Positions 9,947 to 28,871 of a DNA stretch of 60,306 bases are shown here, in pieces (the stretch's first letter is position 1; every line of letters begins with the position of its first letter). The notes below the pieces were generated by a model. The model did not search any database. It was not told where the DNA came from and was given only the letters and a program-made list of their open reading frames with translations. The translations under genes were made by a program, and so were the position numbers. Location: positions 1 to 60,306 of the IMG/VR virus record IMGVR_UViG_3300030406_001449. One strand, 5' to 3'. This DNA comes from a virus (taxonomy: Duplodnaviria; Caudoviricetes).

Positions 9947-10254
9947 ATCTGTATGCGGCCATCAGATTCTACAAACACTATAGCAGAAGCTATGTCATTA
10001 GCAGGAAGCACTCCATCTGCTAATCCTTGCTCTACTGCGTCCATAAATTTTATTACTTTCTGATGGTTTTGGTGCTTCATAGGTCCACCCCTGAACCATG
10101 AATGCACTGTCATACGAGATGTGCCCACTCCTTGAGCTACATATTTAATTGGTAAGTTTGCTTTTAAACATAATTTAGCTAACTGTATTCCTAGAATACT
10201 ATCATCAGCTTTATCTAATCCTAAAACAAATCTATCACTATATGGTCTTGGCAT
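9943..10254 (-). CDS. HTH (XRE/Cro-like) DNA-binding protein
   Basis: LPIKYVAQGVGTSRMTVHSWFRG helix-turn-helix pattern; start revised to MPRPYS (RBS GGAGG). Confidence 0.75.
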   Translation of the reverse strand: MPRPYSDRFVLGLDKADDSILGIQLAKLCLKANLPIKYVAQGVGTSRMTVHSWFRGGPMKHQNHQKVIKFMDAVEQGLADGVLPANDIASAIVFVESDGRIQI

Positions 10255-11087
10255 TATTTCCTCCATTTATCCATTATTTTATTAACATCGTCAGCCTCTT
10301 GAGCTGTATTCACTTTTACTTGTTCTTTATCTGAAGCCTCAAATGCTTCAAACTTAACAGGCTCTTTATCCTCTTCATCGTCAACTTGATACACAGTTAA
10401 CTTAATAGCATTGTAAGCCGCTTGATTCTCTGCTTGGTCTTTTATAACTTCTAATACCCAATCTTCTGCCGCCTCTACAGGCGAGAATAATGCTCTGGGT
10501 TTAGCTGAGTTGGGGTCGAACTGCATCTTAGTAACAATTCTACCCGCACTCACATTGTTGTTTGCTAACATTTGGATATATGTTTTAAATGGCCACTTAC
10601 CTTGTTCCTCTTTCCCAAAACAAGAGTTAGAAGGAAGAACTAATTCTAAAATATCACCCTCTGGGTCATTAGCTAAAACGATAGCTACTCTCCATGATAG
10701 TCTGCAAGAAGTTCCAACACCACCAAAGCCAGAGCCTCGCACACTGTTAGGACAAGTATGACAAGACTTAGCTTGGGGTTTTCTCACTTCTTCATCTGGT
10801 TTTTTAGAATCATTTGACCAACATATAGGACTTACTCTTTTACCCTCTTCGTATGAATCTTTATAATATACTCTTGATGGATTATGTGCCATCTTGATAA
10901 TTATAATACTCATTACAGCAGAGTCGGCTGTGCTGACTTCCTTGCCCCCAACTATTTTTCTAAACACACCACCTCTTAAAGATATGCGTTTTGTCTGGTT
11001 AGAGAAGCTACTATTAGCAACAGCTATAGTATCTTCATCTAACCCGATATTAGGGTTTCTCTCCAGTATGCCCTTGAGTTTATCCAC
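10254..11087 (-). CDS. Putative Zn-binding ssDNA-binding/annealing protein
   Basis: RISLRGGVFR; PICWS...CHTCP..GSG....SCR; acidic C-terminus ending DKWRK; located in the replication module. Confidence 0.55.
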   Translation of the reverse strand: MDKLKGILERNPNIGLDEDTIAVANSSFSNQTKRISLRGGVFRKIVGGKEVSTADSAVMSIIIIKMAHNPSRVYYKDSYEEGKRVSPICWSNDSKKPDEEVRKPQAKSCHTCPNSVRGSGFGGVGTSCRLSWRVAIVLANDPEGDILELVLPSNSCFGKEEQGKWPFKTYIQMLANNNVSAGRIVTKMQFDPNSAKPRALFSPVEAAEDWVLEVIKDQAENQAAYNAIKLTVYQVDDEEDKEPVKFEAFEASDKEQVKVNTAQEADDVNKIMDKWRK

Positions 11088-17967: not shown

Positions 17968-17978
17968 GTTAATCTCTC

Positions 17979-18254
17979 TTACTTAATATTGCTTTCGCCT
18001 GTTTTAATAAATAACTCTAGCATGTCTACGTTCTTTTCGTCAATAACTAATGATTGACCTAGTGAATTTTTTATATCGTTGAGATTTTTTTCTTGAAGTG
18101 CTGTGGGTTTGTTGCCATTGGCTTTACATTCAATACCAATAAATTTCCCACGATAAGAGGCGATGATGTCTGGCACACCACTTGAGCCATAACCACCTGT
18201 TGAGGGCATACAATAATAACAACTAAGTTCTTTGAGTATGTGCTTGACTTTCTG
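17979..18254 (-). CDS. VRR-NUC domain nuclease (Holliday-junction resolvase-like); the start may extend to 18278
   Basis: TPEKKVK, GVPDIIA, FIGIECKA..KPTALQ. Confidence 0.85.
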   Translation of the reverse strand, partial: QKVKHILKELSCYYCMPSTGGYGSSGVPDIIASYRGKFIGIECKANGNKPTALQEKNLNDIKNSLGQSLVIDEKNVDMLELFIKTGESNIK

Positions 18255-18660
18255 CTTGACTTTCTTTTCTGGTGTCAATGCTAATTCCTTTTAGTTCGGA
18301 TAGTTCATCTTCGGACATGATTATAACATATATACTATCAGATACATACCAACCAATATTTTTAAACTCTGGATTATTTTTAGTGTATCTGTAATATGTA
18401 TAACAATCTAATTCATTGAATGCGTCATCATGTTCAAAAGAGTTCCAATCTTCTTTAGGAATAGAATTAATCATAGCTAACTTTGATTGAATAAACTTGG
18501 GTAGTGTTGTCGCCTGGAAAATTCTTTTAGTGTTGTCGCCAACATAAAAATTATATTGTGGTGTATCTCGTCGTGAGCTTACGACGAAATCCATTTGAAG
18601 AAGCACCATATAGTTTTCTTCAAATGGATAGGGACTGTAGATTATTTCATCTGTTCTCAT
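18223..18660 (-). CDS. Hypothetical protein containing one copy of the early-region palindrome
   Basis: 145-aa ORF directly behind its own promoter. Confidence 0.7.
   Translation of the reverse strand: MRTDEIIYSPYPFEENYMVLLQMDFVVSSRRDTPQYNFYVGDNTKRIFQATTLPKFIQSKLAMINSIPKEDWNSFEHDDAFNELDCYTYYRYTKNNPEFKNIGWYVSDSIYVIIMSEDELSELKGISIDTRKESQAESQAHTQRT
18568..18587. repeat. Palindrome TCGTCGT-N6-ACGACGA, copy 1 (intragenic)
   Basis: TCGTCGTGAGCTTACGACGA. Confidence 0.95.
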
Positions 18661-18668
18661 AGAGAACT

Positions 18669-18698
18669 ATCATAACTTTTTCTCTATGAATTTTGCAA
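18669..18698 (-). promoter_or_regulatory. Sigma70-like promoter giving a near-leaderless transcript
   Basis: TTGCAA-N18-TATGAT, 8 nt before the ATG at 18660, with no SD. Confidence 0.6.
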
Positions 18699-18706
18699 GT
18701 GTTAAA

Positions 18707-19441
18707 TTAATACTCGCCCTCACTTACAATCCACTTTCTTAGTTTAGTAATACCTACTTCTTCTTTAGTGGGTCTTTTTTTTGGGTTAGGATTTTTAAGA
18801 CCATTCTCATAAATGTGCACTACCATTTTCATAGTTTCTGGTGGTAAATCTCTTTTTGCTGTATTTGCACCCCATGTACAGAATACAATGTTACTTCTTT
18901 TTCTACCTTTTGTTTTAGTATAACCTTTTTTGGGTACTAATTGGTCGCAAGATACATTTCCAAGAGGTCGTTGATTTCCCATATCATAGTTCCAACGTAT
19001 CCAAGTAAATTCATCACCTGTATAAGGACAGTAGTAACCAAACTCTTTTTTCTGTTTTACCCACAAATTCCAAAAAGTTTTAAAGGTTGGGTGTTCGTGA
19101 GGTAAGTCGTGCTTTTTTGCATTGTTTACTGTGCCTCTCCATAGTTCATAAATGTATAGAGTTTCATCGCCTTGTTCTTTAAGTGCTATTCTTTTTTGTT
19201 TAAGAAGTTCATCATTCGCTTTTGCTGTAGCTGACTGCCTATTCTTTTTTCTAGTCGCTTGTCCTTTGGGACTATTTCTATATGTTTGTCTAGTTTTTTT
19301 TCCCTTAGGACTTTGATTATATTTCTTCGTACTTGCTTTTCCTTTAGGACTTGTGTCATACTTCTTTTGACTAGCTTTACGATTAGCTTTTTTCTGTTTT
19401 TTAGTTAATAAATCTTTTTTCTTTGTATATTGATTTGCCAT
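18707..19441 (-). CDS. His-Me finger (HNH-like) endonuclease with N-terminal basic 11-aa repeats
   Basis: CPYTG...SCDQLVPKKGYT...NIVFC...N..K; repeats YDTSPKGK / YNQSPKGK / YRNSPKGQ. Confidence 0.7.
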   Translation of the reverse strand: MANQYTKKKDLLTKKQKKANRKASQKKYDTSPKGKASTKKYNQSPKGKKTRQTYRNSPKGQATRKKNRQSATAKANDELLKQKRIALKEQGDETLYIYELWRGTVNNAKKHDLPHEHPTFKTFWNLWVKQKKEFGYYCPYTGDEFTWIRWNYDMGNQRPLGNVSCDQLVPKKGYTKTKGRKRSNIVFCTWGANTAKRDLPPETMKMVVHIYENGLKNPNPKKRPTKEEVGITKLRKWIVSEGEY

Positions 19442-19468
19442 AGTTTTTCTCCGAATTTTTCTTCGTTA

Positions 19469-19520
19469 TTTGCGATTTAAGGTACTTAAAAAAACTTTTG
19501 CTTATCTAAGTACCCCCCAA
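19469..19520. repeat. 52-bp direct repeat, copy A (intergenic)
   Basis: 49/52 identical to 21001..21052; internal inverted repeat GGTACTTA...TAAGTACC. Confidence 0.92.
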
Positions 19521-19521
19521 A

Positions 19522-20772
19522 TTATTGTGGTTTAGGCATTAGTAACCAATCTACTAAGAAAGGATTACCTTTTAGTGAATGATGCCTAGAGTTTAGTTGA
19601 TAATAACAACCCAAATCCTCAAACCAATTAGAGCTGTCATTATAACTATGTGTCTTAAAGTATTCTTCAGCAACAGTTGCTCCAGCTCCTTTATTTTCTT
19701 CTGACCATTGTTCCAGCTTAAGTTTTAGCATAGCAAGTGTAGGTTTTATACTATCATAGAAACTTAGTTGTTCTAGGTTACGTACCACCTGTGTATTTTG
19801 CATTATTAAATTACCCAACTTTATATCTAACTGCTCTGCCTTCTCAAATGTGTGTAGGTCGTGAGTTCCTATTTTACCATTAGGTAATTTATAACAAAAC
19901 TGCCTTTGATATCTTCCAGTTGTTACTTCTGGAAAATGCTCAAAAACTTCACCGACTAAAAAGCCACCCATGTTCATTCTACCAATACTAATAAAGCCAT
20001 TTTCAAACTCTTCCTTTAGGTCGCCAATCACTTTCTTAAGATGATTTTTGTCATTATCAAGAGTTTTGATAACGTTCTCATAGTATTCATTGGTTTTATG
20101 AGAAATAGGTTTTTTAGTACCATACAAACTATCTATCAATTCTCCTAGCATTTCTCTGTTGTCGTAAGTTAACTCACTTAACTTTCTATCATAATCTGAT
20201 ATAAGACTTGATATAGTTTTGTTTCCATCAAAATAGCTTGAAACAACATCTTGAGTTTGTATAAGAATAGGTTTCCAAGTTGGTGTAGGAGCTGATGTAT
20301 CAGCAAGAGGCGACCATTCTTTTTTTCTTAATGATTTTAATACTTGTGATACTTTTATAGACTTAATAGTTTTTCTATCCCAACTATCACGACCTCTATC
20401 TTTGATATAATAGTTTGCTTGGAAACAATAATTATCTTCATTATCATAGTATACAACAGCTTGAGGAATACCATCATAAGTCATCACGAATGCCTCATCA
20501 TACCACATAGTTCTACCTTCACTTGCTTGTTTCTTAATCTCCTCATCTAACATAGGGTTATAATTAATATCATTAAATTTATCAAAATCCTCTGCCTCTA
20601 AATAATTTATATGCCATTGAGTGTCATACTTATGCCTCGCTAGAAATAGTCTTTGACTTACACGCATGTCATACCTATGACATAAGTCTTTTACCATAGG
20701 AAAAACTTTACTCTCATTCAAACTTTGTTCCAGCTCTGCTGTGTGCATATTGTCGCTTATATATTTATTCAT
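19522..20772 (-). CDS. Hypothetical early protein, 416 aa
   Basis: Long ORF with the GGAGTAAAAAACTATG start cassette; no recognised motif. Confidence 0.85.
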   Translation of the reverse strand: MNKYISDNMHTAELEQSLNESKVFPMVKDLCHRYDMRVSQRLFLARHKYDTQWHINYLEAEDFDKFNDINYNPMLDEEIKKQASEGRTMWYDEAFVMTYDGIPQAVVYYDNEDNYCFQANYYIKDRGRDSWDRKTIKSIKVSQVLKSLRKKEWSPLADTSAPTPTWKPILIQTQDVVSSYFDGNKTISSLISDYDRKLSELTYDNREMLGELIDSLYGTKKPISHKTNEYYENVIKTLDNDKNHLKKVIGDLKEEFENGFISIGRMNMGGFLVGEVFEHFPEVTTGRYQRQFCYKLPNGKIGTHDLHTFEKAEQLDIKLGNLIMQNTQVVRNLEQLSFYDSIKPTLAMLKLKLEQWSEENKGAGATVAEEYFKTHSYNDSSNWFEDLGCYYQLNSRHHSLKGNPFLVDWLLMPKPQ

Positions 20773-20984
20773 AGTTTTTTACTCCAGTTTTTGTTTTTAG
20801 GATTAATCTCTGTTGGTTTACTTTCATAAATACCAACTGCTAACACTTCAACACTACTTGGCTCTCCCCAAGTGTAATGATTTTGCACTAAACTCTCTGC
20901 CTCTTCACTACTATTAGCCATTACAGAAATCGGCTTATAATGTTGTGTAATGTATACTTCGTACTTTTTCTTCTCTTCATTCAT
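20769..20984 (-). CDS. Small early protein
   Basis: RBS GAGG; V.A.S.EEA motif common in small phage proteins. Confidence 0.7.
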   Translation of the reverse strand: MNEEKKKYEVYITQHYKPISVMANSSEEAESLVQNHYTWGEPSSVEVLAVGIYESKPTEINPKNKNWSKKL

Positions 20985-21000
20985 AATTTTTACCTCGTAG

Positions 21001-21052
21001 TTTGCGATTTAAGGTACTTAAAAAAACTTTCGCTTATCATAGTACCCCCCAA
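21001..21052. repeat. 52-bp direct repeat, copy B (intergenic)
   Basis: Matches 19469..19520; abuts palindrome copy 2. Confidence 0.92.
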
Positions 21053-21054
21053 TT

Positions 21055-21074
21055 TCGTCGTAAGCTCACGACGA
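21055..21074. repeat. Palindrome copy 2 (intergenic)
   Basis: TCGTCGTAAGCTCACGACGA. Confidence 0.95.
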
Positions 21075-21077
21075 CTA

Positions 21078-22016
21078 TCAATTAAACTTAGATAGTATGT
21101 CATCAATACCTTGCTTAACTTCTGCTCTAGTGCTATCACTATCTCTTAGTAAGTCAGTAGATACTCCGCCAATCACTTTTTCCAAGTCATCAACTGCCTC
21201 TTGCAACATATCACTTTGCTCATTGTCTATTGGTTTAAAGTTCTTAATAGTATTTACCAATGCTTTAGCTCGTTGAAATGTAGTATCATAGATAGCTCGT
21301 TTCTTAAAAGTAGGTTGTCCCTCTTTGTCAACACCCTCTATCATTCCACAGCAGTGTGAAATACTCCTCATCACATCAACGATACGATTACATTGGTCAT
21401 TGATTACTGTTCTCACAATATCATCTGCTTGTTGCTGGTACTCTGCTTTCAAGTCATTTGCTGTATCTTGCGACACTTGACATCTGAAATCTTGGCTCGG
21501 TACTTCTGCTACAAACAATCGCATGTTAAACTTGTGTCGTAGTTCTTCAACACTTGGATAGTCGCTTTTGTCAAACATATCACCTTGTTTAAATGCCTCA
21601 TCACTTACAAGAGTTTGATAGTTCTCAAGGAAGTCCTCTACTGCTGTATTAAACTCACTTTCATACTTATCATACTCTGTCTTAAATTTCTCAAGGTCAA
21701 CTGTTGGTAACAAGTGCTGTGAATTGTTCCACCTGTATGTAGAATGTCTAAGCCATTTAAGTATCAACTGTCGTAACTTCACAATCCTATGGTGTTTAGG
21801 ATTTTTAGCAAAGAGATACTTAGTAAACTTACCTGTACCCAACTCTGCTTTTTTCATAGTGGTTACTTCATCTGAAATACCTCTGTCTTGCTTGGTTGCA
21901 GTCCAGACATTCACATCAACTGACACCAACATACTTGATGTTGCCAACGACACAATGTGTTCTGGTTGTTGTAGCTTATAGCTATCGGTGGTTACACCAC
22001 TTTTTTCTAATAACAT
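21078..22016 (-). CDS. DUF3150-like protein
   Basis: SSMLVSVDVNVWTATKQD...FDKSDYPSVEELRHKF; usual neighbour of the MoxR/VWA pair. Confidence 0.6.
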   Translation of the reverse strand: MLLEKSGVTTDSYKLQQPEHIVSLATSSMLVSVDVNVWTATKQDRGISDEVTTMKKAELGTGKFTKYLFAKNPKHHRIVKLRQLILKWLRHSTYRWNNSQHLLPTVDLEKFKTEYDKYESEFNTAVEDFLENYQTLVSDEAFKQGDMFDKSDYPSVEELRHKFNMRLFVAEVPSQDFRCQVSQDTANDLKAEYQQQADDIVRTVINDQCNRIVDVMRSISHCCGMIEGVDKEGQPTFKKRAIYDTTFQRAKALVNTIKNFKPIDNEQSDMLQEAVDDLEKVIGGVSTDLLRDSDSTRAEVKQGIDDILSKFN

Positions 22017-22021
22017 AGTTT

Positions 22022-22252
22022 TTACTCCTGTTGTAGTTTATAATCAATTACTTCAAATTCTTCGTTTAATGCTTTGAGTTCCTCTTCATCTTTTACATAG
22101 AAAAACACATCATCATCATTGATTGGGTCGTGGTATAAATCATTCTCTCTACAATATTTATCCTTACCAAACTTAATGTAATACCCCTCTAGTACTTCTT
22201 GAGTATCTTTCCATTTAATAGTGCAAACTGCACCTACACTTTCTTCTGCCAT
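22022..22252 (-). CDS. Small acidic early protein
   Basis: Start cassette GGAGAAAAACTATG; DDDVFFY motif. Confidence 0.75.
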   Translation of the reverse strand: MAEESVGAVCTIKWKDTQEVLEGYYIKFGKDKYCRENDLYHDPINDDDVFFYVKDEEELKALNEEFEVIDYKLQQE

Positions 22253-22278
22253 AGTTTTTCTCCCATAGTTTAAATTAT

Positions 22279-23457
22279 TTAATCATACTGAACGACAACA
22301 CTTCCAGTCGTTCCCTTAAAGTCTTTCCTGTCTGTTACAACATACAATGTAGGTGTAGACATACTCCATTGAATATCATGCTCAACCCAACCATCAGTAA
22401 ACACAATGATTGCCTCAGCTTTTATTCGTTCCTTTGTGATGTATTCACTCACACAGGATAGTCTAGTGCCACCACCACCTGCCACCTTGAGTAACTTATG
22501 TAGCTCTTGATATTGGTCTGGTCTGAACATCTGTTCACTACATACCTCATAGTCCCACCACAATATGCGTATCAAGTCTGGTGTAACTGTGTTCACGATA
22601 CTCTGCAACTCGGTAGCAAAGATTGTCAGTTCTTCTTGACCAATACTTCCAGATGTATCACATGCAATCACTAGCTCACCTACACTCTCGTTTTCCATAG
22701 AGGGTAGATATAAGTCATTAGGTAACATTCGCTTGTTAAACTTTCGCCAAGTGAACTCATCATTACCCTTACAGGTTGATGATACAAACTCTCTCATCAT
22801 TTCTCGCCAATCAAGTTTTGGCTCAAAGAGTTCGTCAATGGCTCTAGGTATCTTGCCACCAACTTTCCCAGCAAGTATGCTACCCTCTTTGAGTGCGTTC
22901 TCAATCTTCTGTGCCATCTCTTTTTGCTCTTGAGGTGTCATCTCTTGACCACTACCCTCAAAGTCATGCTCATCAAGAGGTTGTAAATTTGATTGACCTT
23001 CGTCGTCGCTTGACGACGATTGTTCTTCCATATCTTTAAGTATCTCGTTGACTGACCAATTATGATACTTCTCTTCATATAAACAACCCTTTGGTAATTG
23101 ACATAAGTCCTTATCTTCCAAGTGATTGATAACATCATTGACTACATAATCAGCACACACATTCATATGGTGTGGATTTTTGTAATACTCTTTCTTAAAT
23201 CTACCGACATGATTAAGTGCCACATGTAAATTCTCATGCAATATCAATGCTCGTAACTCCAAGTCTGATAGTCCCTCAATAAACTTTCTACCATAGTATT
23301 TATTAAAGCCATCAGTCTTAGCAGTTGGACAATCATCAACCACCTCTGACTTACCCAACATCATCACTCCACTATATAGAGCAGTTTCTGGGTGTTTCAT
23401 CAAAGCAATATGAGCTTTCTTAATTCTATCCTCTGGGGATAGCTTGTGTGTTGTCAT
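22279..23457 (-). CDS. DUF2201-type metallopeptidase + VWA domain protein
   Basis: PTAKTDG, HENLH (HExxH), MIDAS DTSGS, GGGGT, FTDG. Confidence 0.9.
   Translation of the reverse strand: MTTHKLSPEDRIKKAHIALMKHPETALYSGVMMLGKSEVVDDCPTAKTDGFNKYYGRKFIEGLSDLELRALILHENLHVALNHVGRFKKEYYKNPHHMNVCADYVVNDVINHLEDKDLCQLPKGCLYEEKYHNWSVNEILKDMEEQSSSSDDEGQSNLQPLDEHDFEGSGQEMTPQEQKEMAQKIENALKEGSILAGKVGGKIPRAIDELFEPKLDWREMMREFVSSTCKGNDEFTWRKFNKRMLPNDLYLPSMENESVGELVIACDTSGSIGQEELTIFATELQSIVNTVTPDLIRILWWDYEVCSEQMFRPDQYQELHKLLKVAGGGGTRLSCVSEYITKERIKAEAIIVFTDGWVEHDIQWSMSTPTLYVVTDRKDFKGTTGSVVVQYD
23000..23019. repeat. Palindrome copy 3 (intragenic, VWA protein linker)
   Basis: TCGTCGTCGCTTGACGACGA, encoding SSSDDE. 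Confidence 0.9.
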
Positions 23458-23627
23458 AGTTTTAACTCCTGTTGTTCATTTACTTCGTATGTTCCGTCAA
23501 ACCTATATCTTCCTTGAACAATATCTTCTATGTTATCCATTAGCCACTTGTGAATATGCGACATAGGTACAGAGAAGTCCTCGCCCTCTTTGAAGTCTGT
23601 AATTATACATCTAGTTTTAAAGTCCAT
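23454..23627 (-). CDS. Small early protein, 57 aa, not in the ORF track
   Basis: MDFKTRCIITDFKEGEDF...QQELKL; start cassette; ATGA overlap with the VWA gene. Confidence 0.7.
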   Translation of the reverse strand: MDFKTRCIITDFKEGEDFSVPMSHIHKWLMDNIEDIVQGRYRFDGTYEVNEQQELKL

Positions 23628-23649
23628 AGTATTTCTCCCATAGTTTAAA

Positions 23650-24708
23650 TTACATAATGTTAAAGTTCTCTACTGCCCAATCTGCTATCTCTTTATTACC
23701 CCTAGCAATCTTGACTGACTTAGTATTTCTCATCATCATAGTAAAGAAAATAGCTTGTATCTCACTACTATTAATCCTATTGATGTACTTCATAAATGCT
23801 GTTAAGTCGCTTTGCTGTTTAATTTTATCAACAGCTTGGAACATCAACATCAGTTGAGCTGAAATACTATCTGGCATATTGGTTGTTTCTGGTTTCTCGA
23901 GTATCTCGGTAAAGGTCGGTAACTCTTTCTCAAGTCGCAAGAATGCTGACATATCCGCACTTGCACTTGCACCAATCGTCCCACTCAATGCCACCATAGT
24001 TGCGTTTTCGCCTAGCTTATCCCTGTTATCCACAATCACACTAGCTTTTTCTAGTGAACGAGGACTGACAAAGGATAGCATTGGTTTCTTAGGATTAAAG
24101 ATGTATGGATTATCTTCCTGTCCGCTATCCCTGTAACTCGCAAGAACTCTAGGAAAGGTATGTACGAATGCTCGTATCAAAGGATTTACTCCATTTTCAG
24201 TCGCCCATACTAGCCAATCCTCTACATTTGGTTTTTCCATTTCTAATATACACACTCTGTTACCAGCATGTGCTAACATAGTGTCGCCCAAGCCATCAGC
24301 TTGATTGTTAGATGTACCAAATACAATACTTCCCTCTGGTAGAGGTGTATCACCTACAGTTCTCTCAAGCATAAGTCTAGTAAAGATAACTTGTAGTAGC
24401 TTTGGTGATTTCATAAACTCATCTAGCAAGATAACTTTAGGTTTATCGTTATCAAGTTTAAACAATGAGCCAACATAGTTCTCTAGTGTTTTAGTTTCAT
24501 GGTTGGGGATAGTCATAGCAATATCTGACATATCCTTGACTGGACAATCTACATAGATGTAATCGTATTTGTCCCCTAGTTTTTTCTCAATCGCTTTGAG
24601 TAGACTAGTCTTACCACACCCAGCTTCACTCTGTATGATTGGTGTTAGAGTTTCTCCTATCGTAGGGATAAGAGTTTCTAACTCTTTTATGGTTACTCTT
24701 TGTTGCAT
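23650..24708 (-). CDS. MoxR-like AAA+ ATPase
   Basis: Walker A SEAGCGKT, Walker B ILLDE, GTSN sensor, NR finger, SPRS; next to the VWA gene. Confidence 0.9.
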   Translation of the reverse strand: MQQRVTIKELETLIPTIGETLTPIIQSEAGCGKTSLLKAIEKKLGDKYDYIYVDCPVKDMSDIAMTIPNHETKTLENYVGSLFKLDNDKPKVILLDEFMKSPKLLQVIFTRLMLERTVGDTPLPEGSIVFGTSNNQADGLGDTMLAHAGNRVCILEMEKPNVEDWLVWATENGVNPLIRAFVHTFPRVLASYRDSGQEDNPYIFNPKKPMLSFVSPRSLEKASVIVDNRDKLGENATMVALSGTIGASASADMSAFLRLEKELPTFTEILEKPETTNMPDSISAQLMLMFQAVDKIKQQSDLTAFMKYINRINSSEIQAIFFTMMMRNTKSVKIARGNKEIADWAVENFNIM

Positions 24709-24713
24709 AGTTT

Positions 24714-24860
24714 TTACTCCTGTGGTTTCCCACTATTTGAGGCATATCTGCCTGTTCTATTTTCTAAGTCTTTCATATCTTGGTGTTGCAGTATCATTAG
24801 TAACCCAATAGCTGTTACTATCAATCCTAACGCAAACCCTATTACAAACATCATTATCAT
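24714..24860 (-). CDS. Small membrane protein, 48 aa, not in the ORF track
   Basis: MIMMFVIGFALGLIVTAIGLLMIL... single TM helix; start cassette GGAGTAAAACTATG. Confidence 0.7.
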   Translation of the reverse strand: MIMMFVIGFALGLIVTAIGLLMILQHQDMKDLENRTGRYASNSGKPQE

Positions 24861-24882
24861 AGTTTTACTCCTGTGGTTGTTG

Positions 24883-24902
24883 TCGTCGTGAGTTCACGAC
24901 GA
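24883..24902. repeat. Palindrome copy 4 (intergenic)
   Basis: TCGTCGTGAGTTCACGACGA. Confidence 0.95.
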
Positions 24903-24904
24903 GG

Positions 24905-25357
24905 TTATTCAATTAATTTATTTTTTTCGTCAAATGCGACATCTATAACATCAATTCTAGGTTTTGTTAGATAAGCCAACTCATAACCCAACTCGCCATA
25001 GTATTCTGAGTTTATATCATCATCATCTTCGCCTACTCGCAGAAAACAAGCCGACATTCCAAACTTAGTGTCATTACAATAATGTGTTGACATACCAAAA
25101 AGATAATTAAAACTAGCTACCCATTTATCGGAGTCATACCACTTGACATCATTAAAACTAACATACAAAGAGCAGTTTTTCATATCAATACCCCCATAAT
25201 CCAGTTGAGTATCTTTTTTTGTAAGTTCTCTCATAGCAATATCACATTTAGGATTAGCTTTGAGTTCAGCGATAAACAAGTGCCAATTCTTAACACTTTC
25301 CTCATCTTCATGGTCGTCCATTTGTATGACCATAACAACTTCACTACGATAACCCAT
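24905..25357 (-). CDS. Conserved early phage protein (MGYRSEV...VKWY...RVGE.DDD)
   Basis: Recurrent phage motif set; RBS GGGGG. Confidence 0.8.
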   Translation of the reverse strand: MGYRSEVVMVIQMDDHEDEESVKNWHLFIAELKANPKCDIAMRELTKKDTQLDYGGIDMKNCSLYVSFNDVKWYDSDKWVASFNYLFGMSTHYCNDTKFGMSACFLRVGEDDDDINSEYYGELGYELAYLTKPRIDVIDVAFDEKNKLIE

Positions 25358-25358
25358 A

Positions 25359-25466
25359 CTAACCCCCTATGCTACGCATGTATACTGTTACAGCACAAGA
25401 TACCACTACTAACAATGGTATGAGTGCTACAATCGTTAATTTAAAATATAGTATCAGCTTATTCAT
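25359..25466 (-). CDS. Small hydrophobic peptide, 35 aa, not in the ORF track
   Basis: MNKLILYFKLTIVALIPLLVVVSCAVTVYMRSIGG; RBS GAGGGGG; fills the gap between ORFs. Confidence 0.5.
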   Translation of the reverse strand: MNKLILYFKLTIVALIPLLVVVSCAVTVYMRSIGG

Positions 25467-25644
25467 TTGACACCCCCTCTCGTTCTTCAGCTTTCTTGTC
25501 TACAAGTTCAAGCATAGCACCATCAATGTCAGTCGTAATATCTACCCCATACTTCTCGCACATGGTACAAAACTCATTGACTGAAAGTTCGCCTAGCTGT
25601 GTGAATATATCTTCTCGTACTTCGTCATTACTCATATTACTCAT
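25459..25644 (-). CDS. Small acidic early protein
   Basis: Coupled ORF; RBS GAGG. Confidence 0.65.
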   Translation of the reverse strand: MSNMSNDEVREDIFTQLGELSVNEFCTMCEKYGVDITTDIDGAMLELVDKKAEEREGVSNE

Positions 25645-25858
25645 TTTTTATTACCTCTCTATATAGTTTATTTACATACTTCTTACGATACATACAGTTA
25701 TTATCAATACAAAACTGTATGAACTTCTTGTTCAATCGTGCCACTTTCATAGTCTTTTTATCTCTAAGTATGGCTCTCATAAACACTTCCTTTGCTATTG
25801 TGTCTTGCTGTTGCATACACATCACAGCATAATTTATATCATCATGTGTTCTTATCAT
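25637..25858 (-). CDS. Small early protein
   Basis: Coupled ORF; RBS GGGG. Confidence 0.65.
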   Translation of the reverse strand: MIRTHDDINYAVMCMQQQDTIAKEVFMRAILRDKKTMKVARLNKKFIQFCIDNNCMYRKKYVNKLYREVIKNE

Positions 25859-26018
25859 CTTTATCCCCCTGCATGTAATCGTGCAATACTTTGATTTGTT
25901 GCTCCCGTGTAAGACTTCTATCTATGTACTTCTTGAGTGCTATCTCGTACTCTTCTTTAGTTACATTAGGTCTATTCATTTCCCACCATAAATATGCAAA
26001 GTCTGTAAAGTTTGTCAT
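25842..26018 (-). CDS. Small early protein, 58 aa, not in the ORF track
   Basis: MTNFTDFAYLWWEMNRP...; ATGA overlap with the upstream ORF stop. Confidence 0.6.
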   Translation of the reverse strand: MTNFTDFAYLWWEMNRPNVTKEEYEIALKKYIDRSLTREQQIKVLHDYMQGDKDDKNT

Positions 26019-26230
26019 CTGTGAAATCCCCCTTTGTTGTTAATGCCTTTCAAGTCTGCTTTGTCGCTGACCACGACATAGTTTGATTTGTGCATTGGTA
26101 CGATTGTGTGCTTTACTTTTCTGGCTTGATGTTCGCCACAGTCAAGGCAAGTGTTGAAACCTGCCTCTAATCGTTTCTTGCTGTAATATGCACCACAGCT
26201 CGAACAGATTGCCTTCATTGATTTAGTCAT
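26015..26230 (-). CDS. C4 zinc-finger early protein (DksA/TraR-finger-like)
   Basis: CSSC...RLEAGFNTCLDC; PMHKSNY motif; start cassette. Confidence 0.75.
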   Translation of the reverse strand: MTKSMKAICSSCGAYYSKKRLEAGFNTCLDCGEHQARKVKHTIVPMHKSNYVVVSDKADLKGINNKGGFHR

Positions 26231-26381
26231 AGTTTTTACTCCCTTGCTTTTCTTTTAGAATGGCTCTAGCTTTATCTATTGTTTCTTGACTAGCACCACC
26301 TAAAAAATAATTCATTGTAGAATTAGTATTGTCAAAAGTTTTGAGCCATTTTCTTAGTTCTTGTATAGTCCAGTTTTCCAT
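26223..26381 (-). CDS. Small early protein, 52 aa, not in the ORF track
   Basis: MENWTIQELRKWLKTF...; start cassette GGAGAAAAAACTATG. Confidence 0.7.
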   Translation of the reverse strand: MENWTIQELRKWLKTFDNTNSTMNYFLGGASQETIDKARAILKEKQGSKNYD

Positions 26382-26395
26382 AGTTTTTTCTCCTG

Positions 26396-26415
26396 TCGTC
26401 GTAAGCTCACGACGA
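26396..26415. repeat. Palindrome copy 5 (overlaps a stop codon)
   Basis: TCGTCGTAAGCTCACGACGA, identical to copy 2. Confidence 0.95.
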
Positions 26416-26769
26416 ACTGTTAGTTAAGAATGCGACTTCTCGTTTTGCTTTGCGTTCCATATACCTCATCAAAGAGCCACATCTTATATACTCTTTCATA
26501 TCATCAGTATATAACCAACACTCAACTGGCTCACTAGGTCTGCATTGTGATTGATGTTTTGATGTTGACATTGAGTATCTACCTTTATTCCCTATCCACA
26601 TTCCAGCTTGTCTATCATAGATATACATTGGGAAGTGGTAGCCATAGCTGTATACGACATATAACCCGTCGTCATCAAATGACACTTTATTTTCTGCAAA
26701 GGTATTGCTACCCTCAAAGACTTTTAGTTCGTCAACATATTGACTTGCGTTTTTGTTTGCTACTTTCAT
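26407..26769 (-). CDS. First gene of the early operon (YSYG.HF...YS.STSKH family)
   Basis: Start revised to MKVANKNAS after GGAGCAAAACTATG; downstream of a strong promoter. Confidence 0.8.
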   Translation of the reverse strand: MKVANKNASQYVDELKVFEGSNTFAENKVSFDDDGLYVVYSYGYHFPMYIYDRQAGMWIGNKGRYSMSTSKHQSQCRPSEPVECWLYTDDMKEYIRCGSLMRYMERKAKREVAFLTNSSS

Positions 26770-26797
26770 AGTTTTGCTCCATAGTTTTATTAGTTGC

Positions 26798-26817
26798 TCG
26801 TCGTGAGATGACGACGA
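26798..26817. repeat. Palindrome copy 6 (5' leader of the early operon)
   Basis: TCGTCGTGAGATGACGACGA. Confidence 0.95.
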
Positions 26818-26869
26818 GAGTACATTAGTGCTAGATACAAAATTTAGATATGTTTCTACCACTATGACT

Positions 26870-26898
26870 ATTATACTATATGTAAAGTAATAGGTAAA
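26870..26898 (-). promoter_or_regulatory. Sigma70-like early promoter
   Basis: TTTACC-N17-TATAAT, with AT-rich sequence upstream. Confidence 0.7.
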
Positions 26899-26899
26899 G

Positions 26900-27955
26900 T
26901 TTGTAATCCATTTATTTACAACTAAATGAATTGAGATAAAACTACCATTACTAACACTACCACCACATCAACTAGAAACATATGACCAAAAATTACACGC
27001 AGTCTACGTTATTTTCACTATCTAAATCTCACTATCGCACGAAAGATAAAGGATATCTGACGACCTGCACTTTAAGTTTTTTATTAGGATATAAACTTCA
27101 TTATCATTTGAAACTTAACTCTCTGCCTAGCGGGACAGCTTTGACTTTTATATCACTATCTAAATCTTACTATCATCTAAAAGTTAACTTCCAGCTCCCT
27201 GTACAGGCACAGAGTATTTTATGGTAGTGTATGACGCACAGCGATAAATACATTGTGATTAGAGTCCCGAGATGCTAAATCATCTTACTGTACATATTAT
27301 GGTATAAACTTTACATATAGAAAAACATAAGTAGCTGAGCTTCGGACAAATAGTGTACTTTTTGAGTTCAAAAAACTGGTTATTCCAAAATGGTAACTTG
27401 TTGTTTTTATTGTAGTTCGTCGTCAGTCGGCGACGGTTCTCGGTTCTAACTGGGTGTAGCTTTACATATAATACTGGAACTGGACTTATTGTTTTATGTA
27501 AAGTAAACCTAAGTGATTGTAATTATAAGAGATACTTAGGTTATTATTATATTATATATTATGTTTTTTACTTATTATTTCTTCAGTTCTTAAGTTCCTA
27601 GTTTTTTGATAGGACGATACCTTTCTGCAACGAATAATTACACCGCAAAAACAAGACGAAAGACCACAGAAAAACGAAAAGTTGCTCACTATCTAAAAAA
27701 AGAGGGAACTATGGAACTGGTTTTACATATCAAATACTTAAGTAGGAACTAAAATAGGAACTGAAGAGAACTTAAAATAAAAAAAATAGGAACTGAACTG
27801 ACTATCAAAGTAAATAGCCGATTTGAAAACTGGTTACACAAAAAAAACTGGCTATTAAATTTAAAAACAACTTGACATAAACTTAAGTTTACATATAGTT
27901 TACTCTCTATGTACTCACTATCTTAGTACATTCGGAACTGGCGACAAAATTTGAG
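26900..27955. other. Long non-coding region rich in short iterated motifs (candidate origin/terminal control region)
   Basis: GGAACT x7, TCACTATC x5, AAAACTGGYTA x3, repeated TTTACATA; AT-rich core near 27.5 kb; no convincing ORF. Confidence 0.55.
27417..27436. repeat. Palindrome copy 7 (2 mismatches)
   Basis: TCGTCGTCAGTCGGCGACGG. Confidence 0.75.
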
Positions 27956-27957
27956 CC

Positions 27958-27990
27958 AAAAAAAGGGCGGTTAGATTTCTCTAACCACCC
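27958..27990 (-). terminator. Rho-independent terminator
   Basis: Minus strand GGGTGGTTAGA-GAAA-TCTAACCGCCC followed by T7, just after the ORF 28016 stop. Confidence 0.88.
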
Positions 27991-28015
27991 TAAAAACGTC
28001 CTTGTCAAGTCCTAA

Positions 28016-28660
28016 CTATTTCATATATTTTTTATTAATCTCAATTGCTTTATTATACATATCTAGCATTTCGATTGCATAGCCCTTATCACAAGCACCT
28101 TTTTTCATAGCATTCGACATTCTCTTATGTTCTCGCATAATATTAATTTCTGTTTGCTGTTCAAAGGTTTTACCCTCGTCGTCAGTTGACGACGGTGCTT
28201 TAGGTTCTACGGCAAGTTTTACCCAAGTCTTAAAACGTCCGCCTATAAACTTGAATAACTCACGACGAACACCCGAAAAACCCACCTCGTCGGACATTAT
28301 AGCCGAGTATATTTCCTCACCATGCGGTTGAGTTTTCCATTTTTTCTCATCCCATAATACCTTAGTAACCGTCAAATCGATTTCAGTATCACCGATTTTC
28401 TGTTTACCGAATTTAGGCATATGTTCGTCTTTATTAGCCCACTCAACGGCTAACAATTTAGTTACATCATTATAAAATGATATGCTTTCCTTGTTACCGC
28501 CTTTAGCTATGGGTTTAGAGTGTTGGTGCAAAGTCTTCTCGTACCATTTTGGCATTAAAGTATTTAGCACACGAACAGCACTTGTAACACTCATATTGAT
28601 TTCATGCTGTTTATTTTCCGCCGATAATATATCGGATATAGCTTTTTTTACTGTAGTCAT
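28016..28660 (-). CDS. Stand-alone earliest gene, hypothetical 214 aa
   Basis: Has its own promoter and terminator; start GGAAAGACTATG. Confidence 0.82.
   Translation of the reverse strand: MTTVKKAISDILSAENKQHEINMSVTSAVRVLNTLMPKWYEKTLHQHSKPIAKGGNKESISFYNDVTKLLAVEWANKDEHMPKFGKQKIGDTEIDLTVTKVLWDEKKWKTQPHGEEIYSAIMSDEVGFSGVRRELFKFIGGRFKTWVKLAVEPKAPSSTDDEGKTFEQQTEINIMREHKRMSNAMKKGACDKGYAIEMLDMYNKAIEINKKYMK
28176..28195. repeat. Palindrome copy 8 (intragenic, 1 mismatch)
   Basis: TCGTCGTCAGTTGACGACGG, encoding PSSTDDE. Confidence 0.88.
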
Positions 28661-28677
28661 AGTCTTTCCTATAGTTG

Positions 28678-28697
28678 TCGTCGTGACCTCACGACGA
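28678..28697. repeat. Palindrome copy 9 (5' leader), plus an extra half-site at 28700..28706
   Basis: TCGTCGTGACCTCACGACGA-GG-ACGACGA. Confidence 0.95.
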
Positions 28698-28775
28698 GGA
28701 CGACGAGGTTAGTATAAGCACATCTATATAAGCATGTGCGGTTTATGGTTATATAATGTTGCTAACCATGCTTAT

Positions 28776-28804
28776 AATATAACAAATATAGATATATATG
28801 TAAA
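28776..28804 (-). promoter_or_regulatory. Sigma70-like promoter of the ORF 28016..28660
   Basis: TTTACA-N17-TATATT with extended TG. Confidence 0.65.
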
Positions 28805-28851
28805 GTTTTAAATACATTTAGTTGTAAGTTATTGATTTTATTAAGAAATTC

Positions 28852-28871
28852 ACGTCGTAGATTGACGACGA
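28852..28871. repeat. Palindrome copy 10 (1 mismatch)
   Basis: ACGTCGTAGATTGACGACGA. Confidence 0.88.

What the first reader, a model, noticed from the sequence alone, without database searches (positions are those of the whole stretch)
18568..28871. Ten copies of a fixed-spacer palindrome TCGTCGT-N6-ACGACGA mark only the early region
Seen: perfect copies at 18568, 21055, 23000, 24883, 26396, 26798 and 28678; near-perfect copies at 28176 and 28852 (1 mismatch) and 27417 (2 mismatches). I found none in the other ~50 kb. The arms are CpG-rich in an AT-rich genome; my rough estimate of chance expectation is far below 0.001 per genome. The arms are invariant, the spacer is always 6 bp but varies in sequence, and the same asymmetric site occurs in both orientations (18568 vs 21055/26396). 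This fits a dimeric dsDNA-binding protein better than an RNA hairpin. Sites fall in leaders, at gene junctions, in non-coding DNA and inside ORFs, so they do not behave as ordinary promoter operators. Inference: a cis-marking system on the probably first-injected ~10 kb, such as landing pads for an ejected or earliest protein (protection, stepwise DNA entry, localisation, or region-wide early shut-off), or decoys for a host defence factor. I do not recognise a described system matching this.
Basis: partly seen in the sequence, partly recalled or inferred. Interest (0 to 1): 0.9.

Follow-up and report, generated by a model that had tools for sequence, protein, structure and literature searches.

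The report
Phage-specific palindromes marking early genes
This marine phage and its many relatives each carry about ten copies of their own private 16-20 bp palindrome in front of their early genes, probably docking sites for a fast-evolving early phage protein, and two lab-grown phages have the same system so it can be tested.

Summary
There are 7 perfect and 3 near copies of TCGTCGT-N6-ACGACGA, all within 18568-28871, none elsewhere in the 60.3-kb record, and about 0 expected by chance.

It is a family trait. 50 of 80 related loci carry their own multi-copy inverted repeat (17 different arms) at orthologous places. Analogous sets occur in the cultured Planktothrix phage Pag-Yong1 and Rhizobium phage RHph_TM3_14A.

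The sites lie on the sense side of leftward early/middle genes. Most sit between a stop codon and the next Shine-Dalgarno; some are in frame inside ORFs. Spacer length is fixed within each genome (168 of 174).

The third, ORF 28016..28660, is the first sizeable early gene. It is hypervariable, bracketed by sites, co-varies with the arms and models as a symmetric homodimer.

Best reading (about 0.4): operator-like dsDNA sites for this early protein, acting as a phage-specific switch on the early/middle block. An RNA-hairpin role (about 0.27) and a promoter role (about 0.13) are not excluded.

"First-injected DNA" is unsupported. This is a new variant of a known kind.

The parts
18568..18587 (.). 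Palindrome copy (perfect), in frame in the 5' part of ORF 18223..18660. On the sense (minus) strand it is followed after 12 nt by TATAAT.
   Evidence: The orthologous copy, with other arms, is present in L121, L122, L123 and L126.
21055..21074 (.). Palindrome copy (perfect) after the stop of the 312-aa gene. On the sense strand it is followed after 13 nt by TATGAT.
23000..23019 (.). Palindrome copy (perfect), in frame inside the DUF2201 metallopeptidase/VWA gene 22279..23457 (encodes SSSSDDE).
   Evidence: There is an orthologous in-frame copy with genome-specific arms in L122, L126, L176 and L173.
24883..24902 (.). Palindrome copy (perfect), 22 nt upstream of the ATG of the small ORF 24714..24860 that precedes the MoxR-like ATPase.
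26396..26415 (.). Palindrome copy (perfect), 14 nt upstream of the ATG of ORF 26223..26381.
26798..26817 (.). Palindrome copy (perfect) in the 5' leader, about 46 nt downstream of the start expected from the sigma70-like promoter at 26898..26870 and 15 nt before an ATG.
27417..27436 (.). Degenerate copy (2 mismatches) in the non-coding, repeat-rich stretch at about 26.9-28.0 kb.
28176..28195 (.). Near copy (1 mismatch), in frame inside ORF 28016..28660 (encodes PSSTDDE, in a low-confidence linker of the model).
28678..28697 (.). Palindrome copy (perfect) in the 5' leader of ORF 28016..28660, 17 nt before its ATG. An extra half-site CTCGTCGTCC sits just upstream.
28852..28871 (.). Near copy (1 mismatch), 47 nt upstream of the -35 of the promoter at 28804..28776 and just downstream of a G-rich tract.
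28016..28660 (-). Candidate reader ('first220'): a 214-aa basic protein, the first sizeable early gene. It is hypervariable between relatives and bracketed by palindrome copies.
   Evidence: No family in PHROGs, Pfam or NCBIfam. Only 4 library hits. pI 9.1. Co-varies with the arms. Homodimer model scores 0.62 against a best control of 0.00.
28776..28804 (-). Sigma70-like promoter TTTACA-17-TATATT (with TG) in front of ORF 28016..28660.
   Evidence: a consensus match only.
26870..26898 (-). Sigma70-like promoter TTTACC-17-TATAAT in front of the next early unit.
   Evidence: a consensus match only.
27964..27991 (-). Intrinsic-terminator-like hairpin plus T-run that closes the ORF 28016..28660 unit.
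18550..18555 (-). TATAAT hexamer 22 bp downstream of the dyad centre of copy 18568. There is no -35 match, so this may be a palindrome-dependent promoter for the replication genes.
   Evidence: The same 22-bp spacing occurs in L121, L122 and L123 despite different arms.
18591..18627 (-). Conserved 12-bp-stem hairpin immediately upstream of copy 18568. There is a compensatory G-C to C-G change between the window and L122/L123.
   Evidence: the 131-nt region folds with z = -5.3.

Best explanation
The palindromes are cis sites of a phage-private regulatory code. Each genome of this podovirus group carries about 8-11 copies (26 in a Rhizobium phage) of one 16-20 bp dyad-symmetric sequence along its early/middle transcription block.

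I propose they are read as double-stranded DNA by a homodimer of the first sizeable early gene product (here ORF 28016..28660, 214 aa). This protein evolves very fast, and its sites co-evolve with it.

Inferred mechanism:
- The protein is made at once from a strong host-type promoter.
- It binds copies around its own gene (autoregulation).
- It binds copies at gene junctions and inside long genes of the early/middle block, damping or blocking host RNA polymerase there, as stoperators do.
- At two conserved copies that replace a -35 box 22 bp upstream of a -10 hexamer (the 18568 and 21055 types), it turns on transcription of the downstream genes.

Shown: the sites, their family-wide allelic series, orthologous placement, fixed spacing, and co-variation with this gene.

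Inferred: binding, the dsDNA form of the target, and the direction of the regulatory effect.
For: 1. Non-random and region-restricted.
- The window has 10 copies against 0.02 expected.
- G001 and G004 each have 8 copies within about 10.2 kb of about 59 kb.

2. Family-wide private alleles.
- 50 of 80 related loci have at least 3 copies of their own inverted repeat. One of these (L156) looks like an ordinary terminator. There are 17 distinct arm sequences.
- Copies sit at orthologous places even where the flanking coding sequence is 80-96% identical.

3. Fixed geometry. The spacer length is constant within each genome: 168 of 174 arm pairs over 24 loci, not de-duplicated. In several lineages the symmetry runs through the centre, giving 16-bp perfect palindromes such as those of L146 and L176. 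That would leave a 2-nt loop in a hairpin.

4. Both orientations of asymmetric variants occur in one genome (window; L172, 3 against 3).

5. Copies are not tied to translation starts.
- There are in-frame copies at conserved places in the DUF2201 gene and the 145-aa gene.
- In RHph_TM3_14A, by my reading of the annotation, 10 of 26 copies lie well inside long ORFs including PolA and a helicase.
- Gaps between copies are rarely above about 2.5 kb.

6. Reader candidate. At ATPase identity 85-94%, different-arm pairs have 19-22% identity in the first-220 protein. Same-arm pairs at ATPase 84-93% have 42-92%.
- The 416-aa protein does not discriminate.
- The HTH protein and the giant protein's wHTH are excluded.
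- L212, which carries a window-type first-220 gene, has the same arms at the three orthologous places.

7. The candidate gene is bracketed by copies in every genome examined. In L172 a copy overlaps the -35 of its promoter. In RHph a copy starts 3-4 nt after a TTGACA-17-TATATA promoter.

8. The homodimer model scores ipSAE 0.62 against a best control of 0.00, with runs agreeing in at least 97% of contacts and pLDDT at least 84. The calibration was 20 of 30 true homo-pairs against 1 of 23 single chains reaching the mark, and it holds only roughly because my own alignment was used.

9. 13 of 18 family members have pI of 9.1 or more.

10. A -10-like hexamer lies 22-24 bp downstream of the dyad centre at 18 of 189 sites, against 4 in the mirrored control. 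It is robust at two orthologous places.

11. Precedent: Cluster A stoperators (20-30 sites per genome, motif distance tracking repressor distance; passages of PMC6550527).
Against: - No DNA-binding domain is recognisable in the candidate. Pfam, PHROGs and NCBIfam gave nothing. The AF2 model is only pLDDT 68 and has no match in PDB or BFVD.
- Co-variation could be mere linkage, because the gene sits at the head of the marked block. It is also not clean: L136 and L148 share arms at 42% identity, while L138 and L166 differ in arms at 48%.
- 120 of 190 non-redundant perfect sites have an SD-like motif plus ATG within 45 nt downstream. An RNA role explains this more directly, although intergenic space is the only free space available.
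- The spacers of L123 (7 of 7 CATA) and L126 (8 of 8 of one polarity) are asymmetric and always in one orientation relative to transcription.
- In imperfect copies, mismatches are A:C on the sense strand 39 times against G:T 13 times (roughly 2:1 by independent events). This hints at a strand-specific single-stranded form.
- L122 and L125 keep a copy with a 9-nt spacer.
- The peak of -10 hexamers is partly produced by TATxATG start contexts.
- No binding, transcript-end or expression data exist. The one RNA run found holds only contigs of relatives.
Confidence: 0.4

Rival explanations
1. The element acts as an RNA hairpin in the early/middle mRNAs. It would be an 8-bp stem with a tetraloop placed between the stop codon and the next Shine-Dalgarno, read by a co-evolving phage RNA-binding protein or nuclease. 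Possible roles are translational control, segmenting or stabilising the polycistronic mRNA, timed destruction of early mRNA, or N/boxB-like antitermination.
For: - 120 of 190 sites have an SD-like motif plus ATG within 45 nt downstream, with a mode of 14-23 nt.
- In Pag-Yong1 the unit is typically TGA-TCC-palindrome, about 20 nt, GGAG, ATG.
- The RNA folds at -10 to -12 kcal/mol and leaves the SD free.
- The marked block shares a distinctive leader, aaacyAcaGGAGtAAAAACTATG, that is absent from replication and structural genes.
- Spacer polarity is constant relative to transcription in L123 and L126.
- A 9-nt-spacer variant is conserved in L122 and L125.
- The arrangement 'first early gene, hypervariable, with its own hairpin in its leader' mirrors lambda N and nutL (recalled, not from a call).
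Against: - Arms are invariant within a genome and spacing is fixed, so structure alone is not what is selected.
- Perfect 16-bp palindromes would leave 2-nt loops.
- In-frame copies inside ORFs, and 10 of 26 ORF-internal copies in RHph (by my reading), have no translational logic.
- Copies lie upstream of, or over, early promoters.
- Imperfect copies more often break pairing on the sense RNA (A:C 39) than keep it (G:U 13).
- Only two intrinsic terminators were found in the block, so antitermination seems unnecessary.
- No Rfam family matched.
Confidence: 0.27
2. The palindromes are promoters or polymerase-loading sites for phage-directed transcription. Either they are hairpins extruded on the template strand, as at N4 early promoters, or they are a T7-class-II-like set of near-identical promoters, with the hypervariable early protein as specificity factor.
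For: - The distribution resembles a phage promoter set: many near-identical copies, a few inside genes, gaps of about 2.5 kb or less, and private to each phage.
- The sequence just 3' of the element is also conserved within a genome (L123 CTAACT..., L172 ACTAAC..., L194 TCACTAAAC). Transcripts starting there would have 12-20-nt leaders containing the SD.
- Mismatches keep G:T pairing on the template strand.
- The MoxR-like ATPase's best isolate hits are N4-like phages at 25% identity.
- N4 promoters are 5-7-bp hairpins read on the template strand (passages of PMC4496689).
- Two orthologous copies sit 22 bp upstream of a -10 hexamer with no -35.
Against: - No RNA polymerase is detectable. PF00940 found nothing, though the control genomes were silent too. 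Phmmer and a profile of the 2068-aa protein against PDB, which should hold the solved N4 and crAss-like virion polymerases (recalled; the call listed none), gave nothing above E = 0.1.
- The conserved core of the 2068-aa protein is an HExxH motif with LPD38.
- The 416-aa protein has a confident model (pLDDT 84.8) but no PDB match.
- Host-type promoters already precede the first units.
- Most SD-proximal copies leave no room for a -10 box.
Confidence: 0.13
3. The sites act through DNA structure or DNA transactions rather than gene expression. They could be cruciform or bridging sites for genome organisation, recombination-dependent replication, or a self-marking signal that halts a nuclease or other factor.
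For: - Copies keep a maximum spacing (about 2.5 kb or less) even by sitting in frame inside long genes.
- In RHph copies also occur in the structural module.
- The window encodes Hjc-like and endonuclease VII-like nucleases next to the block.
- An AT-rich repeat-laden non-coding stretch, and in L126 three DnaA-box-like repeats (consensus recalled), lie beside the first copies.
Against: - In the marine family the copies are confined to one transcription block and hug gene starts. A genome-wide DNA-handling role does not predict this.
- Stems of 6-9 bp are short for spontaneous cruciforms.
- No partition, nickase or recombinase partner was identified.
Confidence: 0.1
4. The copies are selfish or neutral repeats (REP/MITE-like) spread by a mobile mechanism, without a function for the phage.
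For: The sequence is identical within a genome and differs between genomes. A gene is bracketed by copies, as RAYT genes are by REPs (recalled).
Against: - Copies occupy orthologous positions in genomes with different arms.
- Copies lie in frame inside conserved genes.
- No transposase was found, and the bracketed protein is helical rather than HUH-like.
- The pattern persists from AT-rich marine phages to GC-rich Rhizobium phages.
Confidence: 0.03

Closest known systems
Stoperators and operators of Cluster A mycobacteriophages (L5, Bxb1)
   Same: There are many copies (20-30) of one short site per genome, mostly at gene junctions and not at promoters. They are read by one phage protein that also binds true operators. 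Site motifs differ between lineages and track the divergence of the protein (passages of PMC6550527; abstract start of PMC9283540 in the listing).
   Different: Stoperators are 13-bp asymmetric sites bound by a monomeric HTH immunity repressor of temperate phages, oriented with transcription and spread genome-wide. Here the sites are dyad-symmetric and occur in both orientations. In the marine family they are confined to one 10-kb block. The candidate reader has no recognisable HTH, and none of the window ORFs I scanned matched an integrase family.
17-bp palindrome 5'-TGTTCGGNNNCCGAACA of Cluster O mycobacteriophages
   Same: It has invariant 7-bp inverted repeats with a fixed, sequence-variable spacer. 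There are 34 copies, lying between ORFs or near 5' ends, with no meaningful orientation and unknown function (passages of PMC4351075).
   Different: It is one motif shared by five near-identical phages, so no allelic series and no co-varying protein were reported in the passages I read. The host and phage lineage are unrelated.
Start-associated sequences and extended SAS (ESAS) of Cluster K mycobacteriophages
   Same: A conserved SD-containing leader occurs on a subset of non-structural genes. About half are preceded by inverted repeats whose consensus differs between subclusters. Placement is conserved by gene family and the function is unknown (passages of PMC3203893). The window likewise has a block-specific leader, with palindromes in front of some genes.
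   Different: ESAS arms are 17 bp and imperfect, with a variable 4-13 bp spacer. Here the arms are 6-9 bp and exact with a fixed spacer, and copies also sit inside ORFs and near promoters.
Hairpin promoters of coliphage N4 virion RNA polymerase
   Same: They are short hairpins (5-7 bp stem) with sequence-specific stem contacts in the early region, on a podovirus that shares the MoxR-like ATPase (passages of PMC4496689).
   Different: N4 has three promoters with a 3-nt loop, and they need a T7-like virion polymerase. No polymerase was found here, there are 8-11 copies, the loops are 2-8 nt, and host-type promoters are present.
phi29 p4-type early/late switch proteins
   Same: It is an early phage protein that represses early promoters and activates a weak later promoter (mentioned in the introduction of PMC4496689). 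This matches the inferred dual use of the copies.
   Different: No sequence or fold relation was shown, and phi29 has few sites rather than a dispersed set.

Membership tests
Cluster A stoperator/repressor system | Many copies of one short site per genome, mostly at gene junctions | tested here: met
   10 copies in the window; 7-11 in relatives; 26 in RHph_TM3_14A.
Cluster A stoperator/repressor system | Asymmetric 13-bp site oriented with transcription | tested here: not met
   The sites are dyad-symmetric, and asymmetric spacer variants occur in both orientations.
Cluster A stoperator/repressor system | Site motif co-varies with the binding protein | tested here: met
   First-220 protein identity is 19-22% for different-arm pairs and 42-92% for same-arm pairs at comparable backbone identity. 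Binding itself was not shown.
Cluster A stoperator/repressor system | Reader is an HTH immunity repressor of a temperate phage | tested here: not met
   ORF 28016..28660 has no HTH or repressor family. None of the window ORFs that I scanned matched an integrase family; not every ORF was scanned.
N4-type hairpin promoter | A T7-like virion RNA polymerase is encoded | tested here: inconclusive
   PF00940 gave no match, but the control genomes were silent too. Phmmer and a profile of the 2068-aa protein against PDB gave nothing better than E = 0.13. Its conserved core is HExxH plus LPD38.
N4-type hairpin promoter | 5-7 bp stem, 3-nt loop, conserved -17..+1, three copies at one genome end | tested here: not met
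   Stems are 6-9 bp, spacers 2-8 nt, and there are 8-11 copies over 10 kb. The record's ends are not physical ends.
Intrinsic (Rho-independent) terminator | GC-rich hairpin followed by a T/U run | tested here: not met
   No T-run follows any of the 10 copies on either strand. The genuine terminator-like sites are elsewhere, at 27991-27964 and 29112-29094.
REP/RAYT-type mobile palindromes | Extragenic copies spread by an HUH tyrosine transposase that they flank | tested here: not met
   Copies lie in frame inside ORFs and at orthologous places. No transposase family was found, and the flanked protein is modelled as helical. The defining features are recalled, not from a call.
Cluster O / Cluster K (ESAS) repeat classes (descriptive, function unknown) | Invariant short inverted repeats with a spacer, many copies near gene starts in the non-structural part | tested here: met
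   Searches compared with passages. This is a likeness of pattern only; there is no sequence or lineage relation.
Known RNA families (Rfam 15) | Match at the gathering score | tested here: not met
   0 matches in the whole window on either strand.

The most novel reading that the evidence does not exclude
The palindrome and reader pair is a private 'address code' that diversifies under conflict between co-infecting relatives. Each lineage's hypervariable early protein would recognise only its own roughly ten marks (17 alleles seen among 80 loci) and use them to run its own early-to-middle switch. A competitor's genome carrying other marks would be left unserved or shut down. This would be a form of heteroimmunity in virulent marine phages. 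In its boldest version the marks are read as extruded template-strand hairpins by a transcription machinery not yet recognisable by sequence.
Probability: 0.18. Interest if true: 0.85.

Novelty: new variant of a known kind. Interest (0 to 1): 0.66.

Why it matters
Dispersed, genome-private palindromes have been noted in a few actinobacteriophage clusters, but their function is still open (Cluster O and Cluster K ESAS; passages).

What this group offers that those lacked:
- A natural allelic series: 17 arm variants among close relatives whose flanking genes are 80-96% identical.
- Copies kept in frame inside conserved genes.
- A single co-varying gene.
- Cultured members (Rhizobium phage RHph_TM3_14A and Planktothrix phage Pag-Yong1).

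Together these turn "what are these repeats for?" into a directly testable question: bind, swap, and map transcripts.

It would also give a handle on how virulent marine phages time their genes without their own polymerase. For annotation, the marks delimit the early/middle block in an abundant uncultured family: 253 relatives were found in IMG/VR.

Tried and rejected
Searches that gave nothing useful
- Megablast of the block against isolate phages: no match.
- No Rfam family.

Candidates and roles considered
- Intrinsic-terminator reading: rejected, no T-runs.
- The 416-aa ORF 19522..20772 as reader: its model is confident (pLDDT 84.8) but has no PDB match. Its divergence does not separate same-arm from different-arm pairs, so it is not favoured.
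- HTH 9943..10266 and the wHTH of the 2068-aa protein: rejected as readers.
- 2068-aa protein as a virion RNA polymerase: no support.
- Fold of the 214-aa protein: pLDDT 68, no match in PDB or BFVD. The ESM Atlas gave only unnamed viral clusters.
- P0002 (39% identical to the 214-aa protein) could not be placed on any viral or metagenome contig, so that co-variation test failed.
- DnaA boxes in the window are not enriched: 26 against 20.2 expected.

Isolates without the repeats
- KPP25 (44 of 64 kb scanned).
- Pelagiphages HTVC027P and HTVC023P (first 30 and 24 kb).
- Phage 023Pt_psg01 (50 of 59.8 kb).
- Pag-Yong1 was scanned over only 33 of 65 kb.

Inconclusive analyses
- RNA evidence: one metatranscriptome run with a 0.07 share of words. 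When laid at 85% likeness it holds only contigs of relatives, which can show neither ends nor strand. No conclusion was drawn.
- Stop-to-palindrome distance with naive ORFs was too noisy to use.
- The mismatch-type test and the -10 spacing test are suggestive but confounded, as stated above.

Literature
- Searches found no description of this family's repeats and no paper naming Pag-Yong1. The library is limited and supplements were not opened. Supplementary figures of PMC3203893 and PMC6550527 may hold details on ESAS and stoperator motifs that I did not see.
- Features of T7 class II promoters, lambda N/boxB, REP/RAYT, P1 Lpa and T4 RegB are recalled, not from calls.

Full report
**What is there.** The pattern TCGTCGT-N6-ACGACGA occurs 7 times exactly and 10 times with up to 2 mismatches. 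All copies lie between 18568 and 28871. Shuffles give 0.00 and 0.02 expected. The window is a whole 60306-base IMG/VR virus record with GC of 0.33-0.41.

**Setting.**
- Genes from 29736 down to 7097 run on the minus strand. First come small ORFs of unknown function. Then come a MoxR-like AAA ATPase (23650..24708), a DUF2201 metallopeptidase/VWA protein (22279..23457), a DUF3150-like protein (21078..22016) and a 416-aa unknown.
- Next are nucleases, PolA, an exonuclease, a helicase, a gp2.5-like SSB and a primase-helicase.
- Structural genes run rightwards from 29841. After the record's artificial end they finish with a 2068-aa protein (707..6913) carrying LPD38 and a conserved HExxH core.
- Sigma70-like promoters (29800, 28804, 26898) and two intrinsic-terminator-like sites (29112-29094, 27991-27964) lie on the minus strand at the head of the block.
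- Read on the sense strand, five copies end 14-22 nt before an ATG, with a Shine-Dalgarno-like purine run between at most of them. Three are in frame inside ORFs, one is in a non-coding stretch, and one is upstream of a promoter. None is followed by a T-run.

**It is a family trait with private alleles.**
- The ATPase has 253 relatives in IMG/VR, and the best 80 loci were kept. None carries the window's arms.
- However, 50 of the 80 have at least 3 copies of another inverted repeat with 6-bp arms and one fixed spacer. One of these, L156, looks like an ordinary terminator.
- I count 17 arm sequences, among them TGTAGTG, TGTATCG, TTCCCGT, TGTCGA, CCTGACA, CGTGGGA, TTCGACA, AGTCTACA and AATCGGGA.
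- Copies sit at orthologous places: before the same genes, inside the DUF2201 gene just upstream of the conserved LDEHDF stretch, and in the 5' part of the 145-aa gene.
- The closest relatives have backbone proteins 80-100% identical to the window's, yet different arms. The window's TCGTCGTGA differs from G001's TTGTAGTGA at two positions per arm, changed on both sides in all copies.
- In the two records rated complete, all 8 copies fall within about 10.2 kb.
- Analogous sets exist in cultured phages that share the ATPase and DUF2201 genes:
  - Planktothrix phage Pag-Yong1 has GGTTCA-N3-TGAACC, 16-19 copies in the 33 kb scanned.
  - Rhizobium phage RHph_TM3_14A has TTACC-N6-GGTAA, 26 copies genome-wide against 0.055 in shuffles.
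- KPP25, two pelagiphages and 023Pt_psg01 lack them in the parts scanned.

**Anatomy that bears on mechanism.**
- (a) Spacer length is constant within each genome: 168 of 174 arm pairs over 24 loci.
- (b) In several lineages the symmetry runs through the centre, giving 16-bp perfect palindromes.
- (c) Of 190 non-redundant perfect sites, 120 have an SD-like motif plus ATG within 45 nt. The marked block has its own leader consensus.
- (d) Copies are nevertheless not tied to starts. Where a junction copy is missing, an in-frame copy sits nearby. In RHph, by my reading of the annotation, 10 of 26 lie deep inside long genes. Gaps rarely exceed about 2.5 kb.
- (e) Asymmetric variants occur in both orientations. 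But L123 and L126 keep one polarity.
- (f) Imperfect copies show A:C on the sense strand more often than G:T: 39 against 13, roughly 2:1 by events.
- (g) Two orthologous copies (the 18568 and 21055 types) lie 22-23 bp upstream of a TATAAT/TATGAT hexamer with no -35 match. The spacing is the same in relatives with other arms.
- (h) As RNA the copies fold into 8-bp stems with tetraloops at -10 to -12 kcal/mol.

**Who reads it.**
- The HTH protein 9943..10266 is 100% identical in G001.
- The wHTH of the giant protein is nearly identical in G003 and G004 and absent in G001. Both are therefore excluded as the determinant of arm specificity.
- The 416-aa protein is simply fast-evolving.
- ORF 28016..28660 stands out. 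It has no BLAST match in the four close relatives, yet every genome has a 209-260-aa gene at the same place: right after the first one or two copies, behind a strong promoter and closed by a terminator.
- These proteins form a remote-homology network and are mostly basic.
- At comparable backbone identity, they are 19-22% identical between different-arm genomes and 42-92% between same-arm genomes.
- The protein has only 4 hits among 1.84 billion representatives. A contig with a window-type gene has the window's arms.
- Its model is helical with pLDDT 68 and no structural match.
- A homodimer model scores 0.62 against 0.00 for the best of three controls. This supports pairing but does not show it.
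- RHph has the same layout (G-rich tract, palindromes, a 242-aa helical gene, a terminator, an AT-rich repeat region) without sequence similarity.

**Reading.** I favour, at about 0.4, operator-like dsDNA sites for a dimer of this early protein. It would autoregulate, damp or block transcription through the early/middle block, and activate the two -35-less promoters. That is a switch in the manner of stoperator repressors or phi29 p4. An RNA-hairpin function (0.27) explains the hugging of Shine-Dalgarno sites better. It does not explain the ORF-internal and promoter-proximal copies or the fixed spacing. A promoter function for an unrecognised polymerase (0.13) fits the distribution and the template-strand bias but lacks a polymerase. 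DNA-structural or self-marking roles (0.1) and selfish repeats (0.03) are less likely. The general claim, a functional cis element read by a co-evolving phage factor, I hold at about 0.8.

**Comparison and novelty.** The nearest known kinds are:
- Cluster A stoperators: dispersed and co-varying with the repressor, but asymmetric, HTH-read and in temperate phages.
- The Cluster O 17-bp palindrome and the Cluster K SAS/ESAS, both of unknown function.
- N4 hairpin promoters.

None is a family match (see the membership rows). My searches found no description of this group's repeats. I rate it a new variant of a known kind. Its value lies in the allelic series, the in-frame copies, the single co-varying gene and the cultured members.

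**Limits.**
- There are no binding or transcript-end data.
- Co-variation may be linkage.
- Counts across loci are not phylogenetically independent.
- 30 of 80 loci showed no set, perhaps because they are short or their arms are less exact.
Supplements were not opened.

Noticed in passing
window 26900-28000 (minus strand): This is a non-coding, repeat-laden stretch after the terminator of ORF 28016..28660. AACCAGTTTT-type words lie at 27372, 27826, 27844 and 28880, and TAGATAGTGA-type and CAGTTCC-type words recur. RHph_TM3_14A has an AT-rich repeat region at the same relative place. It may be an origin or a regulatory region.
   Followed up: partly
window 28897-28918 (minus strand): A G-rich tract (GGGG..GGGGCGGGGTGGG) followed by an ACCAGTT word lies immediately upstream of the first palindrome copy. 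The same G-tract-then-palindrome order occurs in most relatives shown (clearly in L136, L148, L137, L173 and L166) and in RHph_TM3_14A.
   Followed up: partly
window 18700-28700, starts of minus-strand genes: Genes of the marked block share a leader consensus, aaacyAcaGGAGtAAAAACTATG. It is absent from the replication genes (7-17 kb) and the structural genes. This resembles the start-associated sequences of Cluster K mycobacteriophages.
   Followed up: partly
window 18591-18627 (minus strand): A 12-bp-stem hairpin lies directly upstream of copy 18568, with a compensatory G-C to C-G change in L122 and L123 and a different hairpin at the same place in L126. Together with the palindrome and a third small hairpin, the 131-nt region folds with z = -5.3.
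   Followed up: partly
L126 about 2700-2740: Three tandem TGTGGATAA words (DnaA-box-like; the consensus is recalled) follow the first palindrome copy of this relative. The window itself has no such cluster.
   Followed up: partly
window 707-6913 (+): The 2068-aa protein sits at the end of the structural operon. It has a hypervariable N-terminal 800 aa (35-40% identity to relatives whose other virion proteins are 80-100% identical), a weak wHTH at about residues 520-585 (ArsR/FtsK-gamma-like, E 0.02-0.4), a conserved HEGTH core around residue 954, and LPD38 at 1761-1917. It is likely an ejected polyvalent protein.
   Followed up: partly
window 20985-21041 (minus strand): After copy 21055 there is a 16-codon mini-ORF or leader (ATGATAAGCGAAAG...). 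Its DNA is conserved in L122 and L123, but L123 lacks the ATG. It therefore looks like a transcribed leader behind a TATGAT -10 rather than a gene.
   Followed up: partly
window 21078-24708 (minus strand): The trio of MoxR-like ATPase, DUF2201 metallopeptidase/VWA and a DUF3150-like protein is conserved through the family. The ATPase and DUF2201 genes are shared with RHph_TM3_14A and all three with Pag-Yong1. The ATPase's best isolate hits are N4-like phages at 25% identity.
   Followed up: partly
window 1-698 and 59540-60304: ORFs run off both ends of the record, and the 'terminal repeat' of relative G004 splits its terminase gene. These records are circular or permuted assemblies, so their ends are not the virion DNA ends.
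   Followed up: yes
window 16000-30500 versus run X1: A marine metatranscriptome library holds many contigs that are 85-99% like this block: 183 pieces laid, of which 8 are at 99% or more. One carries indels exactly at the 23000 copy, meaning a relative with another palindrome there. Because these are contigs, neither transcription nor RNA ends can be claimed.
   Followed up: no
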